Positions 19,654 through 42,339 of a stretch of DNA of 64,000 bases are shown here, one piece after another (within the stretch, counting starts at the first letter, position 1; every line of letters begins with the position of its first letter). A model generated the notes under the pieces. It did no database searches and had not been told where the DNA came from. It worked only from the letters and a program-made list of their open reading frames with translations. A program made the position numbers and the translations under genes. This DNA comes from a virus. The stretch covers positions 20,324 to 84,323 of the IMG/VR virus record IMGVR_UViG_3300033148_003679; one strand, given 5' to 3'.

Positions 19654-20712
19654 AAACGATGGCTGGCATGAATATCGCGTTCACACAACAGGAAGCCTTG
19701 TACGAAGCTGACGATATAATCTTTCGACTTAACCAGGCATTATCTATACACGATGCCAGACTCGTTTATGAAGCTCGGAAAAGTTTACAACAGTTGGTTA
19801 ACGATCTGTTCGAGTCCGGTCTCTACAGTGGCAGTCTACGCGATGTCCTGACAAAAATCGATTATAACTTGTGGGTTGAACATATGAATTTTGTTTGACA
19901 GGATTGGTGCTAACGACAAATCTATAGTAGTAATCGAAGATGGTGAAGTTCTTGAAGTGCGTCAACTCGTTATAACAGGAGATAGCTAGAGATGACAGAG
20001 TTTTTTGGACAACCAATAAAGACATGGGGTGGATTGAAGTTTTGGAAGGGTAAATCCAAAGGGTTTAAGAATATGAACGACGTACTGGTAGAACGAATAG
20101 AGAAGTTGGAGACAAGGATAAGGTCTCTTGAAAAGTCTGCTCCATGTGTTTGTGACCATTGTGGAAAACCGGCTATTGTGAGATATGACGCTGTAAGCTG
20201 GGAAATTCCTCTTCAGCTAACACTATTACTGTCTGGAAAATGGCAGAGTAAAGCTAGAGTTGTCTTACATTATGACTGTGTTGGAAGGTCAAAACAAAAC
20301 AGGCGAAAGAAAGACAGACGTGCAAAAAGTACCTACAGTCCAAACGATAGACGTGTTGCTAACAGACGACGACGGCAGAAGAAAGTTACACGTAAACCGA
20401 AACCGAAATAGTCTAACAAGGCAAGACAAAAAGAGGATATAGATATGAGTTTCTTTTATGCTACTCGATCTCCGCGACATCGTGCTCATGAAGTGTATAG
20501 GTTCAGATCGAGAGAGTCTCGTTCTGAATGGGTTCGGAAATTAAAAGGTAAATCTGTCCGGCCACAGAACCCGATTGTGCGGTACGCCGTAAAAGAGAAT
20601 GATTGGACTTGGCGTGGATCTGCTGGCAACAAGTACCAGATTGCTTATGTTGGTAAATATGTAGTAGAACAATAGTTGAACGTTGTATGTAAATAAGTAT
20701 ACAGGAAAGTAG

Positions 20713-21183
20713 GTGGTATATAGAATGGATGATATGCAGGCAATTGTTCGTAAAATGGTTGTGTCTGTTGTAGACGACCGAATGCAAGGTATAAATGTTC
20801 AGCTCAAAACATTGTGCCGGAAAATTTCGGTTATTTGTAACGAGTTGCAGTCTGTTCATGAAAAGAAACTTGAACGTATTCGGGAAATAGCAACGAGCGA
20901 CAAAGAGGGTGTACGAGCTACAGATATAAGCGAATCTGTCCGAGACGTGTTTGCAGACTTTTTTGACAGTAAAGACGATCCTTTGGCAGACGTTGTTTCT
21001 AAACGGTCTGACAAAAAAGAGGATGACGGCAAGAAAGTTAAACCTGGTGTACTTGATATAGCGGAAACGAGTATAAAAAGTAAACCGACAAAACAGAATG
21101 TTGTACCTGCAAGCAGTTCGAGTTTAGCGTCTCAGTTTGGAAAGTTTGACGGTGGTAACGGCGAGATTCAGCAGATAGTGTGA
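20713..21183 (+). CDS. Hypothetical protein immediately upstream of the pentamer arrays
   Basis: 156 aa ORF. Confidence 0.6.
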   Translation: MVYRMDDMQAIVRKMVVSVVDDRMQGINVQLKTLCRKISVICNELQSVHEKKLERIREIATSDKEGVRATDISESVRDVFADFFDSKDDPLADVVSKRSDKKEDDGKKVKPGVLDIAETSIKSKPTKQNVVPASSSSLASQFGKFDGGNGEIQQIV

Positions 21184-21214
21184 GACGAGTGTAGAGTGTT
21201 ATGTGATACATTGC

Positions 21215-21704
21215 AGTAGGGTGTGGTGAGGTCGGATAGGGTCGTGTCGGGTGAGGTAAGGTATGGTGCAATGGGGTAAGGTCAGGTGAGGTAAGGTGCG
21301 GTAGGGATTGGTCTTTCTTCAATAAAGGAATGGTATTAGATAAAAGGAACGAAGTAAGCATTAGAATTTGATAGAGTAATGTCAAGTAGAGTCGGGTCTG
21401 GTCAGGTGCGGTGATGCAAGGTGAGGTGCGGTCGGGTTAAGTACGGTGCGGTGTGGTCATGTCGGGTACGGTCTGGTGCGGTGCGGTCGGATCTGGTGCG
21501 GTAAGATAAGGTGAGGTAAGGTTACTTTTTTTCTAGTAAAGGAATGATAGGCAGTAAAGGAGTGCAAATTAGAGTGTAACATTCAATATGGTGAGGTATG
21601 ATAGGGTGGAGCGGGGTCTGGTCGGGTCCGGTCAGGTATGGTGTGGTATGGCGAGGTCCGGTATGGTCAGGTGAGGTATGGTACGGTGCGGTGGGGTAGG
21701 GTTT
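21215..21704 (+). ncRNA. Three GGT-NN pentamer arrays (21215-21314, 21370-21524, 21590-21704); putative guide RNAs
   Basis: Strict 5-nt phase with constant GG(T/C) and variable NN. Each array ends ggtA(G/A)-gg(t/a)T; arrays 1 and 2 are followed by a pyrimidine tract and TAAAGGA. Confidence 0.75.
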
Positions 21705-21841
21705 GGAACACAAACTCACAATGACCATGATAAAATGCGATGGCAAGTACAAAGAAAGGAGAACGCTTATAAGACAACGAATGTGGTGTGGTTGGTTTTG
21801 GGAATAGAAGAACGAAAAATAAGTAGAAAGGTAGGTAGCCA

Positions 21842-22447
21842 ATGTATCAATCTGTGAATGTAAAAATAAAGGGTGTGGCTCCAGTTATGTTTCACAACCC
21901 GCAACTTGCAAATCCTCTTAACTCGTTTACACAGGGAATCAAGAAAATCTCTGCAAAACGAAACAAGACAGAAGAAGATTTTAAAGAGATGTCCAGACTG
22001 GAATTTTTGGGCGGTCTCTATGTAGACGACAAAGGTAAGGTAATCGTTCCGGCAGAAATGCTGGAAGCGTCTCTACTGTCTGGTGCCAAGAAGAAGAGAC
22101 GTGGTGCTAAGTTTAAGGCGGCGGTTTTGGTGCCGGAATCAGCTCGTTTGATTTATGACGGGCCGAAAAATATCGAGAAGTTGGGACGGGACTCTCAGTT
22201 TGTCGATATTCGGAACGTTACAATTCAGCGTAATACAATTATGAGAACTCGACCTGTTTTTAAGACATGGCAAGCTGAGTTTATGATAATGTTTGATTCT
22301 ACCCTAGTTAATAAGAACGAGGTGGAAGAAGCATTGAACGATGCTGGGCAGCAGTGCGGGATTGGAGATTATCGGCCAAGATACGGACGGTTTATGGTAG
22401 AAAGTTTCGATGTACTTGGCCCTGCAAACGAAGCTGTTACGGTATAG
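21842..22447 (+). CDS. Stand-alone RAMP/Cas7-like RNA-binding protein
   Basis: N-terminal VKIKGVAPVMFH (RAMP beta1 / P-x-x-H), IVPAEMLEASL (RAMP IPGSSLKG-like), RTRPVF..W, C-terminal Gly loop AGQQCGIGDYRPRYGRF. Confidence 0.75.
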   Translation: MYQSVNVKIKGVAPVMFHNPQLANPLNSFTQGIKKISAKRNKTEEDFKEMSRLEFLGGLYVDDKGKVIVPAEMLEASLLSGAKKKRRGAKFKAAVLVPESARLIYDGPKNIEKLGRDSQFVDIRNVTIQRNTIMRTRPVFKTWQAEFMIMFDSTLVNKNEVEEALNDAGQQCGIGDYRPRYGRFMVESFDVLGPANEAVTV

Positions 22448-22456
22448 TTAAACAAG

Positions 22457-22514
22457 TTTGCCTCTGCTCTATTGCGTGAAAGTTTATAGACAAGCGTAAT
22501 AGGGCAGAGACAAA
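22457..22514 (+). other. Intergenic RNA hairpin
   Basis: TTTG.CTCTGCTCTATTGCG pairs with CGTAATAGGGCAGAG.CAAA, including G-U pairs. Confidence 0.7.
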
Positions 22515-22540
22515 TAAATATAATCACGAGGTAAATACAA

Positions 22541-23017
22541 ATGAGTAAGACGAAAGCTATAGTACAGAGTACTTATGAAGGTCTCGATTTTACAGAGTTA
22601 CGAAAAGGTGACATTATTTCGGTAGCTGAACTGGAACGTCTGTTTGGCTTTTCCCGTTCTATGAACGCATATTCTCTTGCAACCATGCAACTCTGTAATG
22701 ATATTTCGAGATATTTCAGAAGTATCGGTGAAATTGTAACTGTGTGTACAAGAGATTATGCGATTCATATTCTACGCGATTCTGAAGCTGCCGAGTATAA
22801 TGCACTGAAGTTTAAACACGGAATTGACACGGCTGACAGAGCACATGAACGCGCTTTAGCCGTTGATATTGGCAACCTGAAACAGGAAGAGGTTTTAAGA
22901 CATGACCGTAAGTTGTATATTCAAGGTCGTATATTACAGAGTATACGGGTAGCAAGAAAGAAAGCATGTCGTGTTGTAGCACATCATAAGGGTGAAGGGA
23001 TGTTGGTGTTGGAATAG
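22541..23017 (+). CDS. Accessory protein of the pentamer-array locus
   Basis: GAGGT RBS; 158 aa, lying between the RAMP-like gene and arrays 4-7. Confidence 0.75.
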   Translation: MSKTKAIVQSTYEGLDFTELRKGDIISVAELERLFGFSRSMNAYSLATMQLCNDISRYFRSIGEIVTVCTRDYAIHILRDSEAAEYNALKFKHGIDTADRAHERALAVDIGNLKQEEVLRHDRKLYIQGRILQSIRVARKKACRVVAHHKGEGMLVLE

Positions 23018-23043
23018 ACGTGGGTTTTGTTGAAGTCTAGTAA

Positions 23044-23748
23044 TGCAGGATAAGGTAGGGTGGGGTGCGGTACGGTGTGGTGCGGTCCGGTCTGGTCTGG
23101 TGAGGTAAGGTCGAGTTGGGTCGGGTAGGGTATGGTGCGGTACGGTTTGGTATGGTGATGTTAGGTAGGGTCTGGTTAGATCGGGCCTGGTGATGTAAGG
23201 CAAGGTTGGGTAGGGATAGTCTTTCTTTAAGTAAAGGAGTGCAAAATAAAGTGCAAACAAAAAGTGTTGTCGACTGTTGTGATATAAGGTCAGATCAGGT
23301 GAGATCGGATGAGGTCGGGTGATGTCGGGTGATGTCGGGTTGAGTGAGGTCGGGTATGGTCTGGTTCGGTGCGGTCAGATCTGGTGAGGTATGGTAGGGT
23401 TACTCTTTTTCTAGTAAAGGAGTGCAAGTGAAAAGAGTGTAAAAAACATAATTGCAATGAGATTCAATATGGTGAGGTGAGGTTTGGTATGGTGAGGTGA
23501 GGTCTGGTGAGGTCGGGTGAGGTATGGCTTGGTGGAGTCGGGTCTGGTCGGGTGTGGTGGGGTGGGGTTAGGTAGGGTATGGTGCGGTTAGGTTCGGTAG
23601 GGTTTTTTCCATAAAGGAGTGTAGAATAAAATGCAAACAAAAAGTGTTGTCGATTGTTATTGATATGAGGTCGGATGGGATTGGGCGCGGTGCGGTCGGG
23701 TCGGGTAGGGTTTGGTGGGGTGGGGTGAGGTTTGGTCGGGTAGGGTTT
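23044..23748 (+). ncRNA. Four GGT-NN pentamer arrays (23044-23218, 23288-23402, 23471-23605, 23669-23748); putative guide RNAs
   Basis: 35, 23, 27 and 16 units, separated by linkers containing TAAAGGAGTG(C/T)A. Confidence 0.75.
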
Positions 23749-23805
23749 CTCTCTCACATAAACGAATACAAACAAAGGAGCGAGCAAGTAAGGGAACACA
23801 ACGTC

Positions 23806-24330
23806 ATGGACAATCACTCGGAAATCAAAGAAGGGTACAAAGTGTGCAGAGTTGTCGATGGCAACAAACTGGTCTCGGCCACATTTTGTGCTGCGGGTGG
23901 ACAAGTCAGTTACCATGTTGATACATGGACGTATCCGTTAGTTGGTTGTGGGCCATTAACTGTATTTGATTCATGGGACAATGCCAAGAACTTTCAGGAA
24001 CGAGTACCGAAAAATATCGAACGGATTTATAATGTGTCGATGGTGGTGAAAGGATTTTCGTTTCTTGTTATTAGAAGATGTTCATATATACTGTCGCTCG
24101 AAAATAAAATATGGATTCAGAGTATGTTGTTTCATTATGATCAGTTATATAATAGAGATATATATACACGGGAAGTTCTTGTAAACGACTTGCCGCCTAG
24201 CACTGTACTTGACAATCAGTTATATAATAGAGATATATATATACGGGAAGTTCTTGCAAATGATTTACCGCATGGTACTATACTTGCTGACAGAGTTAAG
24301 TTGCACAGATTAGATAAAAGGGAAGTGTGA
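23806..24330 (+). CDS. Hypothetical protein (paralog of the next gene) with an internal ~75-nt duplication
   Basis: EGYKVC...YP..CGPLTVFD...DLP.GTILA; QLYNRDIY.REVL.NDLP occurs twice. Confidence 0.65.
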   Translation: MDNHSEIKEGYKVCRVVDGNKLVSATFCAAGGQVSYHVDTWTYPLVGCGPLTVFDSWDNAKNFQERVPKNIERIYNVSMVVKGFSFLVIRRCSYILSLENKIWIQSMLFHYDQLYNRDIYTREVLVNDLPPSTVLDNQLYNRDIYIREVLANDLPHGTILADRVKLHRLDKREV

Positions 24331-24836
24331 TGGACAGTAGCATAAGAGATAAAGAAATTAAAAAATGTTGTGAAGGGTTTAAAGTATGTACAATTACAAC
24401 GGATAATCTTCTGATTTCAGTTGCACCTTATAGCTTGTACGCTCTTTCACCTCGTTTGGAAGAAGTTACATATCCGCTTGGTGCATGGGCATATCCACCA
24501 CCTAATTGCGGCCCTCTAACCGTATTTGACACGTTTAATAATGCTGAAAGTTTCCAGACAGAAATACAGAAAGTTATAGAAGAACTCAAGGAACTTTTGA
24601 GTGACCGTAATTATTCAGGTACGGTTATTGGCCGTTGTTTTTATATGCCATCACAAGAATCTTGTATATGGTTTCCGTGTATACCAGGTTTCCGTCCAGT
24701 TCGGGGTGGAGGTGTTCGTCTTGGCAAACCGGGCAATTATATAACTGCAAAAAATGATTTACCTCAAGGAACTATTCTTGCCAGTTCTGTTAAAGTGTAC
24801 AGCTTAATAGGTTCTGATTATGACGAAAAAAAATAA
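24327..24836 (+). CDS. Hypothetical protein (paralog of the previous gene)
   Basis: EGFKVC...YPPPNCGPLTVFD...DLPQGTILA. Confidence 0.65.
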   Translation: MMDSSIRDKEIKKCCEGFKVCTITTDNLLISVAPYSLYALSPRLEEVTYPLGAWAYPPPNCGPLTVFDTFNNAESFQTEIQKVIEELKELLSDRNYSGTVIGRCFYMPSQESCIWFPCIPGFRPVRGGGVRLGKPGNYITAKNDLPQGTILASSVKVYSLIGSDYDEKK

Positions 24837-41095: not shown

Positions 41096-41572
41096 ATGCG
41101 GTATATCATAACGCAAGCGCATCTTGACGCTGCTCGAAACGCACATGCATGCGAGTCCAGGCTGAACCTATACCATGCTGGCGACAACCTGTTTGACAAA
41201 CTGACGTACGACGATGCGGTTTGGATTGAAGATAATTTGCCGGGCAATGCAAAATCGATATTGAATGCTTTCGGCGTACCGCTTTACGCTATGGCGCGCG
41301 ACGGCTGCGGCTACGGCCACGGTTACGGCTACGGCGACGGCAATGGCTATGGCTATGGTTACAGCTCCGGCGACGGTTACGGCTACGGCTATGGCTATGG
41401 CTACGGCGACGGCTCCGGCTCCGGCTCCGGCGACGGTTACGGCTACGGCTATGGCGACGGCTACAGCTCCGGTTCCGGCTTCGGTTCCGGCTTCGGCCAC
41501 GGCTCCGGCTCCGGCTACGGCTATGGCGACGGCTATGGCGACGGCTACGGCTATAGCTACTGCGACAATTAA
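41096..41572 (+). CDS. Gly/Tyr/Asp-rich repeat protein
   Basis: GYGYGDG repeats; paralog of 41965-42339. Confidence 0.75.
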   Translation: MRYIITQAHLDAARNAHACESRLNLYHAGDNLFDKLTYDDAVWIEDNLPGNAKSILNAFGVPLYAMARDGCGYGHGYGYGDGNGYGYGYSSGDGYGYGYGYGYGDGSGSGSGDGYGYGYGDGYSSGSGFGSGFGHGSGSGYGYGDGYGDGYGYSYCDN

Positions 41573-41968: not shown

Positions 41969-42339
41969 AAACGATGATGCGATACATCATAACGCAGGCG
42001 GATATTGACGCTGCCAGAACAGCACGTGCATGTGAAAATAGACTGAACCTATACCATGTTGGCGACGATCTGTTTGACAAGCTGACGTATACAGATGCAG
42101 TCTGGATCGAAGATAAATTGCCGGACAGTGCAAAAACGATATTGAATGCTTTTAGCGTACCGCTTTACGCTATGGCGCGCGACGGCTGCGGCGACGGCTT
42201 CGGCTACGGCGACGGCTCCGGCTTCGGCTTCGGCTATGGCTACAGCTCCGGTTCCGGCTTCGGCTCCGGCTTCGGCTACGGCTACAGCGACGGTTCTGGC
42301 GACGGCTTCGGCCACGGCTACGGCAGCGGCGACAATTAA
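41965..42339 (+). CDS. Gly-rich repeat protein (paralog)
   Basis: MMRYIITQA...AC...DKLTY.DAVWIED...YAMARDG shared with 41096. Confidence 0.75.
   Translation: MKTMMRYIITQADIDAARTARACENRLNLYHVGDDLFDKLTYTDAVWIEDKLPDSAKTILNAFSVPLYAMARDGCGDGFGYGDGSGFGFGYGYSSGSGFGSGFGYGYSDGSGDGFGHGYGSGDN

What the first reader, a model, noticed from the sequence alone, without database searches (positions are those of the whole stretch)
21215..23748. Candidate RNA-guided system: seven GGT-NN pentamer arrays around a lone RAMP/Cas7-like gene
Seen: seven non-coding arrays (about 20, 31, 23, 35, 23, 27 and 16 units) keep a strict 5-nt phase, with a constant GG(T/C) triplet alternating with a variable dinucleotide. 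Each array has a different NN string and nearly all end in the same tail. They flank a two-gene operon whose first product has RAMP hallmarks. No cas1/2/3/6/10 and no CRISPR repeat-spacer array is present. Known: Cas7/RAMP proteins polymerise along guide RNA with a fixed per-subunit period. Inference: one subunit binds each pentamer, holding GGU and presenting NN, which gives a programmable non-contiguous guide probably aimed at rival phages/MGEs or host defence genes. I recall a recent report of phage 'VIPR' systems with GGY/NN RNAs and a Cas7-ancestor-like protein. I cannot verify that here, so this may be a new member of that class rather than wholly new.
Basis: partly seen in the sequence, partly recalled or inferred. 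Interest (0 to 1): 0.96.

Follow-up and report, generated by a model that had tools for sequence, protein, structure and literature searches.

The report
Phage VIPR locus with long guides
This is a genuine example of the recently described phage VIPR system, in which a small Cas7-like protein and five-letter-repeat guide RNAs bind DNA by a gapped code; it is a new member of a known class, with unusually long guides and unknown targets.

Summary
Seven in-phase GGY-NN pentamer arrays (19, 26, 23, 32, 23, 27 and 16 units; 141 of 166 units keep GGY) lie on the + strand around a two-gene operon, and nowhere else in the complete 84-kb phage genome.

The 201-aa protein matches the solved SUSP1 Vipr protein (PDB 36pp, E 4.9e-36). 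It keeps the published GGY-contact residues and folds like Csm3/Cas7. The 158-aa partner is a remote vap1 relative (hhalign 95%). Relatives of the protein carry same-strand arrays in 77 of 80 viral loci and 68 of 76 genomic loci.

This is therefore a VIPR system, in print since April 2026 (bioRxiv 10.64898/2026.04.26.720920 and three later preprints). This scan has also noted VIPR loci before on other DNA (707 notes in at least 455 genomes).

Particular to this locus:
- The guides are about twice the family's usual length (median 23 units against 11-12).
- The tail is private to this lineage.
- The vap subfamily is divergent.
- A strong hairpin sits between vipr and vap.

No self-target was found. 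Seven seed scans of public collections found no target, and the host is unknown. Verdict: new member of a known kind, modest interest.

The parts
21220..21335 (+). vrRNA gene 1: 19 GGY-NN units (21220-21314, 15 with intact GGY) plus a shared tail holding TAAAGGAATG (21323-21332)
21395..21566 (+). vrRNA gene 2: 26 units (21395-21524, 21 intact); variant terminal units; tail with two copies of the TAAAGGARTG motif (21537, 21555)
21590..21726 (+). vrRNA gene 3: 23 units (21590-21704, 21 intact), ending in GGTAG-GGTTT. It lacks the shared tail; a stable hairpin overlaps the last units (folded stretch 21690-21740, -13 kcal/mol, z -2.66)
21842..22447 (+). vipr: 201-aa RAMP/Cas7-like guide-binding protein
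   Evidence: PDB 36pp_D 'SUSP1 Vipr protein' E 4.9e-36; phrog_4652 E 2.4e-54; model pLDDT 93.8; Foldseek top hits are type III-A Csm chains and Csm3, E 6.9e-7; contact residues kept
22456..22515 (+). strong hairpin / inverted repeat between vipr and vap (16-bp uninterrupted stem), with no run of U after it; role unknown
   Evidence: -30 kcal/mol, z -5.93, 0 of 200 shuffles fold as well
22541..23017 (+). vap: 158-aa Vipr-accessory protein, a divergent relative of SUSP1 vap1
   Evidence: tblastn relatives beside vipr in 20 of the 80 IMG/VR loci; profile-profile match to the vap1 family at probability 95.3%, E 2.3e-8, 109 columns; model pLDDT 84.3
23054..23243 (+). vrRNA gene 4: 32 units (23054-23213, 28 intact) plus shared tail (motif at 23232-23241)
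23288..23426 (+). vrRNA gene 5: 23 units (23288-23402, 16 intact) plus shared tail (motif at 23415-23424); the tail hairpin has 9 pairs, -7.9 kcal/mol
23471..23623 (+). vrRNA gene 6: 27 units (23471-23605, 26 intact) plus shared tail (motif at 23612-23621)
23669..23748 (+). vrRNA gene 7: 16 units (14 intact). The terminal motif GGTAGGGTT occurs twice (23704 and 23739), so this may be two short guides. No shared extended tail.

Best explanation
The locus is a VIPR (Viral Interference Programmable Repeat) system of the SUSP1-like, type II-like architecture, carried by a complete, uncultivated 84-kb phage with direct terminal repeats. Seven + strand genes give vrRNAs made of GGY-NN pentamers closed by two conserved units and, in most, a short tail. 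By homology with the solved SUSP1 complex, one Vipr protomer binds each pentamer. The protomers form a helical filament that buries GGY and presents the NN pairs. The NN pairs then base-pair with double-stranded DNA while every third target base is skipped. The filament sits on the target and blocks transcription, and the Vap1-like protein enhances the effect. What the data here show: the arrays, the homology of both proteins, the conserved contact residues, the co-occurrence in relatives and the absence of self-targets. What is inferred from the SUSP1 and P. fulva experiments in print: transcription of the arrays, filament assembly, the 1-nt skip rule and silencing. If each array is a single RNA, the guides (16-32 units) would read 47-95 bp, about twice the length described so far. 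The NN composition fits codon positions 1-2 of the coding strand, so the targets are probably protein-coding genes of a rival element or of the host. Which genes they are is unknown.
For: Arrays: seven, + strand only, and none elsewhere in the genome; far beyond shuffles.

Vipr protein:
- E 4.9e-36 to PDB 36pp_D 'SUSP1 Vipr protein', residues 5-188 against 4-189.
- 35% identity in alignment A1. SUSP1 H17, K33, R39, G87, R138, D177 and R179 are invariant; E71, M72, K82 and C173 are kept; W178 is replaced by Y. The roles of these residues come from the cryo-EM preprint.
- AlphaFold model with pLDDT 93.8 and pTM 0.86.
- Foldseek against PDB: 104 matches at E <= 0.001. The top rows are chains of type III-A Csm complexes and Csm3 (E 6.9e-7, TM 0.58/0.56).

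Co-occurrence: 77 of 80 IMG/VR loci and 68 of 76 genome loci that encode a relative have at least one in-phase GGY array on the vipr strand.

Vap: relatives next to vipr in 20 of 80 IMG/VR loci; hhalign to the vap1 family at 95.3%.

GGY integrity: 85% of units, the same as in the functional SUSP1 arrays by the same caller (39 of 46).

No self-target: the best NN identity in the own genome under the 1-nt skip is 50-66%. That is no better than the skip-0 and skip-2 controls (50-63%) or shuffled guides, as the discovery paper reports for its own systems.

Other genes: Cas1, Cas2 and Pfam RAMPs are absent.

Viral setting: the record has direct terminal repeats and is 100% complete by CheckV. Terminase, tail fibre, helicase and ribonucleotide reductase genes are present.

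NN composition: it fits 'sense codon positions 1-2' best for 5 of 7 guides, and by 33 bits in sum over the next of six models trained on 44 of the phage's own long ORFs.
Against: - No natural target was found. Seven exact seed scans (six of IMG/VR, one of JGI metagenomes) gave either nothing or hits whose remaining units matched at chance level.
- Nothing here shows that the arrays are transcribed or bound.
- The closest Vipr relatives are only 53% identical, and I could not fetch DNA for them. So hypervariability of NN against constant GGY between close relatives could not be checked.
- The shared tail folds no better than shuffled sequence in 6 of 7 cases, and no pseudoknot like the one in SUSP1 was shown.
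- BLASTP of Vap against SUSP1 vap1 is not significant (E 2.2); only the profile comparison links them.
- On a FastTree the window's Vipr sits in a different part from SUSP1, without strong support. The published type could not be checked because the type tables are in supplements that I could not read.
- The Pfam RAMPs model does not match the protein.
- The composition test assumes that the targets share the phage's codon usage.
Confidence: 0.9

Rival explanations
1. It is a VIPR locus, but each long array is not one guide. The arrays are cut, or initiated internally, into two or more vrRNAs of the usual 9-16 units, for example at degenerate units or at internal copies of the terminal motif.
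For: - Array lengths here (median 23 units) are about twice the family median of 11-12 and twice the 9-16 units stated in the discovery paper.
- vr7 holds the terminal motif GGTAGGGTT twice.
- 25 of 166 units have a degenerate GGY, scattered inside the arrays.
- The paper's fig. S18 legend describes staggered arrays that are processed into several vrRNAs.
Against: - The phase is unbroken within each array, unlike the staggered arrays seen in L057, L059 and L069.
- The terminal motif is internal only in vr7.
- Degenerate units are as frequent in SUSP1's short, functional vrRNAs (85% intact in both).
- Arrays of 23 or more units also occur in relatives: 13 of 294 and 7 of 205.
- No ribozyme or other Rfam family matches the locus.
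Confidence: 0.25
2. It is a decaying or idle VIPR locus. The genes are recognisable, but the guides no longer match anything and the system does nothing for the phage.
For: - No target was found in IMG/VR or JGI metagenomes with seeds from four of the seven guides.
- vr1, vr2 and vr5 have 4, 5 and 7 degenerate units.
- vr5 holds a low-complexity run of alternating units.
Against: - Both ORFs are intact and all tested contact residues are kept.
- GGY integrity equals that of SUSP1.
- The NN positions stay at nearly maximal entropy while GGY stays fixed, which is the signature of selection on the scaffold.
- The seed searches needed 9-10 perfect consecutive units and covered only three collections, so a blank is weak evidence.
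Confidence: 0.07
3. The arrays are coding. The open frames on the minus strand that run through them (for example 22934-23260 and 23464-23916) would encode Pro/Thr-rich repeat proteins.
For: Minus-strand ORFs of 41-150 aa cover the arrays, because the complement of GGYNN rarely makes a stop codon.
Against: - The period is 5 nt, not a multiple of 3, and the constraint lies on three fixed letters in every frame.
- The same arrays accompany Vipr genes on the vipr strand in 145 of 156 loci.
- In SUSP1 they are shown to be small RNAs bound by Vipr.
Confidence: 0.01

Closest known systems
Type II VIPR system of Escherichia phage SUSP1 (vipr, vap1, four vrRNAs; bioRxiv 10.64898/2026.04.26.720920 and 10.64898/2026.04.26.720927; PDB 36pp)
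   Same: - A Vipr protein of about 200 aa (35% identical, contact residues kept).
- An accessory gene directly downstream.
- GGY-NN vrRNA genes on both sides of the operon and on the same strand.
- Conserved 3' ends.
- No self-targets.
- A phage-borne locus.
   Different: - Seven vrRNA genes instead of four.
- 16-32 units instead of the 6-15 that my caller finds in SUSP1, or the 9-16 stated in the paper.
- A different tail, whose motif is found in none of 160 other loci, with no demonstrated pseudoknot.
- A Vap related to vap1 only at profile level.
- A 93-nt spacer with a strong hairpin between vipr and vap, where the SUSP1 genes abut.
- Host and targets unknown.
Pseudomonas fulva prophage VIPR (type II; same preprints)
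   Same: The same architecture (vrRNAs, vipr, vap1) and the same published mechanism. Pseudomonas loci with vap1-type neighbours appear among the relatives (L116, L119, L120).
   Different: That system is in a temperate prophage and targets resident prophage regulators. Here the carrier is a phage with terminal repeats, and no target is known.
Cas7-family backbone subunits of class 1 CRISPR effectors (Csm3 of type III-A)
   Same: The predicted fold: RRM core, glycine-rich loop near the C-terminus and a beta-hairpin thumb. The best PDB fold matches have E 6.9e-7 to 5e-5 and TM about 0.5-0.58. One subunit binds per fixed stretch of guide RNA.
   Different: - 9-15% sequence identity.
- The Pfam RAMPs model does not match.
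- No CRISPR array, cas1 or cas2.
- The period is 5 nt on the RNA and 3 nt on the target, instead of 6 and 6.
- The guide is non-contiguous.
Solo (orphan) vrRNAs of VIPR-null phages and F5 satellites (bioRxiv 10.64898/2026.10.15.759431)
   Same: The same GGY-NN grammar and the same decoding rule.
   Different: Those elements lack vipr and borrow a rival's protein. This locus has its own vipr and vap. Its guides match neither vipr nor the arrays in the 80 related IMG/VR loci above shuffled-guide level.

Membership tests
VIPR system | Vipr protein homologous to the reference Vipr (SUSP1) | tested here: met
   phmmer against PDB sequences: 36pp_D 'SUSP1 Vipr protein', E 4.9e-36, near full length; 35% identity in A1; phrog_4652 E 2.4e-54
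VIPR system | Minimal RAMP fold (RRM core, G-loop, thumb) without a second RRM | tested here: met
   Model with pLDDT 93.8. The best PDB fold matches are Csm complex chains and Csm3, E 6.9e-7. This rests on a predicted structure, not a solved one.
VIPR system | Residues that hold GGY and the skipped base (SUSP1 H17, R138, D177, W178, R179, E71, M72, C173, K33, R39, K82) | tested here: met
   All are identical in the window protein except W178, which is Y (aromatic kept). The residue list comes from Results part 1 of the cryo-EM preprint.
VIPR system | Tandem GGY-NN (YNNGG) pentamer arrays next to vipr on the same strand, with fixed GGY and hypervariable NN | tested here: met
   Seven arrays with 166 units, 141 of them with intact GGY; entropy 0.3-0.5 bit against 1.9-2.0 bit
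VIPR system | Invariable 3' tail after the repeat tract (a pseudoknot in the SUSP1 clade) | tested here: inconclusive
   The terminal units GGTAG-GGWT close 6 of 7 arrays exactly and 1 in a variant. The extended tail motif is in 5 of 7 arrays and nowhere else in the window. The hairpins are weak: 6 of 7 fold no better than shuffles. A pseudoknot was not tested.
VIPR system | Minimal locus: vipr plus one vap gene, with no cas genes and no CRISPR array | tested here: met
   A Vap relative is next to vipr in 20 of 80 loci. Flanking ORFs have no relatives in 158 VIPR loci. Cas1, Cas2 and Pfam RAMPs are absent, and there is no CRISPR-like repeat. cas3, cas6 and cas10 were not searched one by one.
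VIPR system | vrRNAs are expressed and co-purify with Vipr | not testable with these tools
   No sequencing run could be listed
VIPR system | Guides match natural targets under the 1-nt skip rule (at least 80% NN identity) and do not match the own genome | tested here: inconclusive
   There is no self-target: the best match is 50-66%, equal to the controls. No external target turned up in seven seed scans.
VIPR type II (SUSP1 / P. fulva type) | Accessory gene is vap1 (predicted DNA-binding) | tested here: inconclusive
   hhalign of the Vap family (11 sequences) against the vap1 family (7 sequences): probability 95.3%, E 2.3e-8. BLASTP gives E 2.2. No significant PDB fold match: the weak Foldseek rows are winged-helix regulators at E of at least 0.14. 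Whether the authors count this subfamily as vap1 is in supplements that I could not read.
VIPR type II (SUSP1 / P. fulva type) | Position in the authors' Vipr phylogeny | tested here: inconclusive
   FastTree of 147 rows. The window lies nearest L006, L039 and L086, which carry the window-type Vap. SUSP1 lies nearest rows with vap1. The two Vap labels separate with one change, but no well-supported clade holds the window. The type table (data S4, fig.
Class 1 CRISPR-Cas effector (Cas7) | CRISPR repeat-spacer array and adaptation genes; a RAMP that matches the Cas7 family models | tested here: not met
   No CRISPR-like array, no Cas1 or Cas2, and the Pfam RAMPs model finds nothing in the genome

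The most novel reading that the evidence does not exclude
Each array is one long vrRNA of 16-32 units. Vipr would then build filaments of up to about 30 protomers that read 47-95 bp of codon positions 1-2 on the coding strand of genes in an unknown host or rival element. That would be a long-guide form of VIPR, twice the length studied so far. One guide (vr6) may be aimed at a ParE/RelE-like toxin gene, which would make the system an RNA-guided counter-defence.
Probability: 0.3. Interest if true: 0.5.

Novelty: new member of a known kind. Interest (0 to 1): 0.3.

Why it matters
The class itself, RNA-guided DNA recognition by a non-contiguous code, is already in print and is being worked out experimentally. 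This locus does not open a new question. Its value is as a well-defined, divergent natural example: at most 53% identity to any Vipr in the large protein collection searched, and 35% to SUSP1. It has seven guides of about double the usual length, its own tail and a divergent accessory protein. If the long arrays act as single guides, they set a new upper bound for filament length and footprint. That bears on how specificity and mismatch tolerance scale in VIPR, and on tool design. Finding the targets would also show whom an uncultivated environmental phage is fighting.

Tried and rejected
Target hunt. I decoded each guide as NN-x-NN. I scanned 9- or 10-unit exact seeds as follows:
- vr6 units 13-22, vr4 units 1-10 and vr3 units 6-15 in IMG/VR: 0 hits each.
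- vr6 units 1-9 in IMG/VR: 20 hits.
- vr4 units 14-22 in IMG/VR: 1 hit.
- vr7 units 4-12 in IMG/VR: 1 hit.
- vr6 units 14-22 in JGI metagenomes: 14 hits.

On extension, the units outside the seed matched at 4-14 of 36, 5 of 46, 4 of 14 and 7-16 of 36 positions, which is about chance. vr1, vr2 and vr5 were never used as seeds.

Seven metagenome hits (L164-L167, L170, L173, L174) share one conserved stretch that matches vr6 units 12-25 at 26 of 28 positions. It is non-coding in that frame, lies in high-GC contigs just upstream of a gene and has no Rfam family. I rejected it as chance plus copy number.

One in-frame metagenome hit (L162, a 90-aa ORF behind an overlapping 84-aa ORF) carries the seed peptide, but only 9 of 36 other positions match. 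Its only Pfam row is ParE_toxin at E 0.17, below the cut-off. The phage has no ParE_toxin gene. The lead is neither confirmed nor excluded.

Host. All of these left the host unknown:
- No near DNA match in the phage collection.
- The helicase is at most 27% identical to cultured phages.
- No tRNA genes.
- The Atlas look-up of the ribonucleotide reductase gave mixed phyla.
- Vipr relatives in genomes span many phyla.

Expression. No sequencing run could be listed, and no RNA holder was listed.

Vap fold. Foldseek found nothing at E <= 0.001. VIA-align matched only the C-terminal helical hairpin, at Z of at most 9. The PDB profile search gave only PprA at E 0.84.

Related loci. A single-protein search of IMG/VR found none; an alignment was needed. 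Rfam found nothing in the locus. The consensus promoter and terminator scan gave nothing at the arrays. Complex prediction was not used because no binding claim depends on it. The supplements of the VIPR papers (type tables, locus lists, target tables) were not opened. They may already list this locus or its clade, and they decide the type.
Full report
WHAT IS THERE

Reading 20600-24400 and scanning both strands of the window for in-phase GGY gives exactly seven arrays. All are on the + strand.
- Three lie upstream of a two-gene operon: 21220-21314, 21395-21524 and 21590-21704.
- Four lie downstream: 23054-23213, 23288-23402, 23471-23605 and 23669-23748.
- They hold 19, 26, 23, 32, 23, 27 and 16 pentamers.

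Of the 166 units, 141 begin with GGY (136 GGT, 5 GGC). The rest are mostly one change away (GAT 11, TGT 6, AGT 4). Positions 1-3 carry 0.30-0.47 bit of entropy and positions 4-5 carry 1.93-1.96 bit.

Chance does not give this. In 200 shuffles of the region the best in-phase count was 6, against 28 observed. The rest of the window reaches 4, and the 20 kb of the genome outside the window reaches 3.

SETTING

The window is bases 20324-84323 of an 84,323-bp virus record with direct terminal repeats, rated 100% complete. It encodes a small terminase, a large tail-fibre protein, a helicase, a ribonucleotide reductase and DNA methyltransferases.
- It has no near relative among 50,697 phage records.
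- Its helicase is at most 27% identical to that of any cultured phage.
- It has no tRNA genes.
- The host is unknown.

THE PROTEINS

Vipr. The 201-aa product of 21842-22447 has no Pfam family. It belongs to phrog_4652, of unknown function (E 2.4e-54). It also matches one solved structure by sequence: 36pp chain D, 'SUSP1 Vipr protein', E 4.9e-36 over nearly the whole length.

I fetched the SUSP1 locus and aligned the two proteins. They are 35% identical. The residues that the cryo-EM preprint names as holding G1, G2, Y3, the skipped base and the non-target strand (read) fare as follows:
- H17, K33, R39, G87, R138, D177 and R179 are invariant.
- E71, M72, K82 and C173 are kept.
- W178 is replaced by tyrosine.

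An AlphaFold model built from 31 homologues is confident (pLDDT 93.8). Its best fold matches in the PDB are chains of type III-A Csm complexes and Csm3, at E 6.9e-7 and TM 0.5-0.58. That PDB library ends on 8 April 2026 and so lacks the Vipr entries. The RAMP/Cas7-like call is therefore correct.

Vap. The 158-aa product of 22541-23017 has no family and no significant BLASTP match to SUSP1 vap1 (E 2.2).
- It has relatives right beside vipr in 20 of 80 related IMG/VR loci, while vap1 has relatives in 11 others.
- Profiles of the two sets align with probability 95.3% (E 2.3e-8, 109 columns).
- Its model (pLDDT 84.3) is a small alpha/beta N-terminal part followed by a long helical hairpin.
- Fold searches were uninformative.
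- I read it as a divergent vap1-like accessory protein.
- The ORFs that flank the locus have no relatives in 158 VIPR loci.

RELATIVES

The large protein collection holds 53 proteins at E <= 1e-10, and the nearest is only 53% identical.

Alignment-based scans gave 80 IMG/VR loci (the best 80 of 277 confirmed) and 76 loci in genomes of many phyla. An in-phase GGY array of at least five units lies on the vipr strand in 77 of 80 and in 68 of 76 of these loci. On the opposite strand the figures are 7 of 80 and 11 of 76.

Array length in these relatives has a median of 12 units (294 arrays) and 11 units (205 arrays), with 90th percentiles of 19 and 16. Only 13 and 7 arrays reach 23 units. The window's median is 23, and all seven arrays have 16 or more. 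GGY integrity is ordinary: 85% here, 85% in SUSP1 by the same caller, and 80-85% in the relatives.

On a FastTree of 147 Vipr rows, the window lies nearest loci with its own Vap type (L006, L039 and L086, the last from a Pirellulales MAG). SUSP1 lies nearest loci with vap1. The two Vap labels separate with a single change, but support is weak.

TAILS AND ARRAY GRAMMAR

- The motif GGTAGGGWT occurs seven times in the window, all in the locus. It closes six arrays, and there is one internal copy in vr7.
- The motif TAAAGGARTG occurs six times, all in the locus on the + strand, after arrays 1, 2 (twice), 4, 5 and 6. It occurs in none of 160 other loci.
- The pyrimidine run before this motif can pair with it to give a short hairpin, but in 6 of 7 cases the fold is no better than shuffles. 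vr3 instead ends in a stable hairpin (-13 kcal/mol, z -2.66).
- The spacers after vr4 and vr6 are 86% identical over 56 nt. The array starts and ends of vr2/vr5 and of vr3/vr6 resemble each other. The clusters therefore grew by duplication, followed by change of the NN letters.
- No Rfam family, ribozymes included, matches the locus.
- A consensus sigma-70 scan finds nothing at the arrays, so how they are transcribed is open.

HOW IT MOST LIKELY WORKS

The mechanism is taken from the experiments in print on SUSP1 and P. fulva. I read the Results, Discussion and two Methods sections of the discovery preprint. I read Results part 1 of the cryo-EM preprint. I read the abstract and sections 8 and 17 of the competition preprint.

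In those systems one Vipr protomer binds each pentamer. GGY is buried, and the NN pairs bind the target strand while one base is skipped. The result is a filament on DNA that silences transcription, and vap1 enhances the effect. The steps shown here are the parts list and its conservation. All functional steps are inferred by homology.

Three further results are consistent with this mechanism:
- There is no self-target under the 1-nt skip (best 50-66% NN identity, the same as for the skip-0 and skip-2 controls and for shuffled guides).
- The guide cannot pair in register with its own gene, because the gene has a period of 5 and a target has a period of 3. This is an inference.
- The NN dinucleotides fit a model of codon positions 1-2 on the sense strand best among six models trained on 44 of the phage's own ORFs. 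This holds for 5 of 7 guides, and by 33 bits in sum. It agrees with the published wobble-skipping.

TARGETS

I did not find them. Seven exact seed scans, drawn from four of the seven guides, gave no hit that extends beyond the seed. The only support I could add is one metagenomic toxin-antitoxin-like ORF that carries the seed peptide and hits ParE_toxin at E 0.17, below the cut-off, with the rest of the guide not matching. That remains a lead.

COMPARISON AND NOVELTY

VIPR was published as preprints from April 2026, and a fourth preprint recovers VIPR arrays independently (passages read). This scan has itself noted VIPR-type loci 707 times in at least 455 genomes.

The locus passes every membership feature that sequence alone can test. 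Expression and targeting are untested. The authors' type (II, or another type with a DNA-binding vap) cannot be settled without their supplements.

What is particular here:
- Guide length. The papers' text speaks of 9-16 repeats and guides under 100 nt.
- A tail private to this lineage.
- A divergent Vap subfamily.
- A very stable hairpin between vipr and vap (-30 kcal/mol, z -5.93).

Interest is modest.

Noticed in passing
window 22456-22515: A 16-bp perfect inverted repeat / hairpin in the 93-nt spacer between vipr and vap (-30 kcal/mol, z -5.93), with no run of U after it. SUSP1 has no such spacer. It could be a processing or stability element, or an operator for the Vap protein.
   Followed up: partly
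window 23704-23712 and 23739-23747: Array 7 contains the terminal motif GGTAGGGTT twice, so it may be two short guides (about 7 and 5 variable units) or a partial duplication.
   Followed up: partly
window 23223-23278 and 23603-23658: The spacers after arrays 4 and 6 are 86% identical over 56 nt. Arrays 2/5 and 3/6 share start and end units. The two clusters are related by block duplication with later change of the NN letters.
   Followed up: partly
window 21784-21802: A short degenerate run of GGT-like pentamers lies between array 3 and the vipr start. It may be a remnant of a further array.
   Followed up: no
window 23806-24330 and 24327-24836: Two adjacent paralogous ORFs of unknown function lie directly downstream of the locus. 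The first holds a 75-nt tandem duplication (24140-24286, 87% match). Neither has relatives in 158 VIPR loci.
   Followed up: partly
window 41301-41553 and 42179-42333: Long hexamer repeats (ACGGCT, 42 and 24 copies) lie inside a 10-kb stretch of higher G+C (0.46-0.525 against about 0.40-0.45 elsewhere).
   Followed up: no
L164-L167, L170, L173, L174 (for example L167 3650-3700): A conserved non-coding stretch just upstream of a gene in high-GC metagenome contigs matches units 12-25 of guide 6 at 26 of 28 positions. No Rfam family matches it. I judged it to be chance.
   Followed up: partly
L057, L059, L044, L069 (IMG/VR loci): Relatives carry up to 15 arrays separated by 2-10 nt with phase shifts, like the 'staggered' arrays of the paper's fig. 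S18 legend. L074 has one array of 41 units, and a genome locus has one of 56.
   Followed up: no
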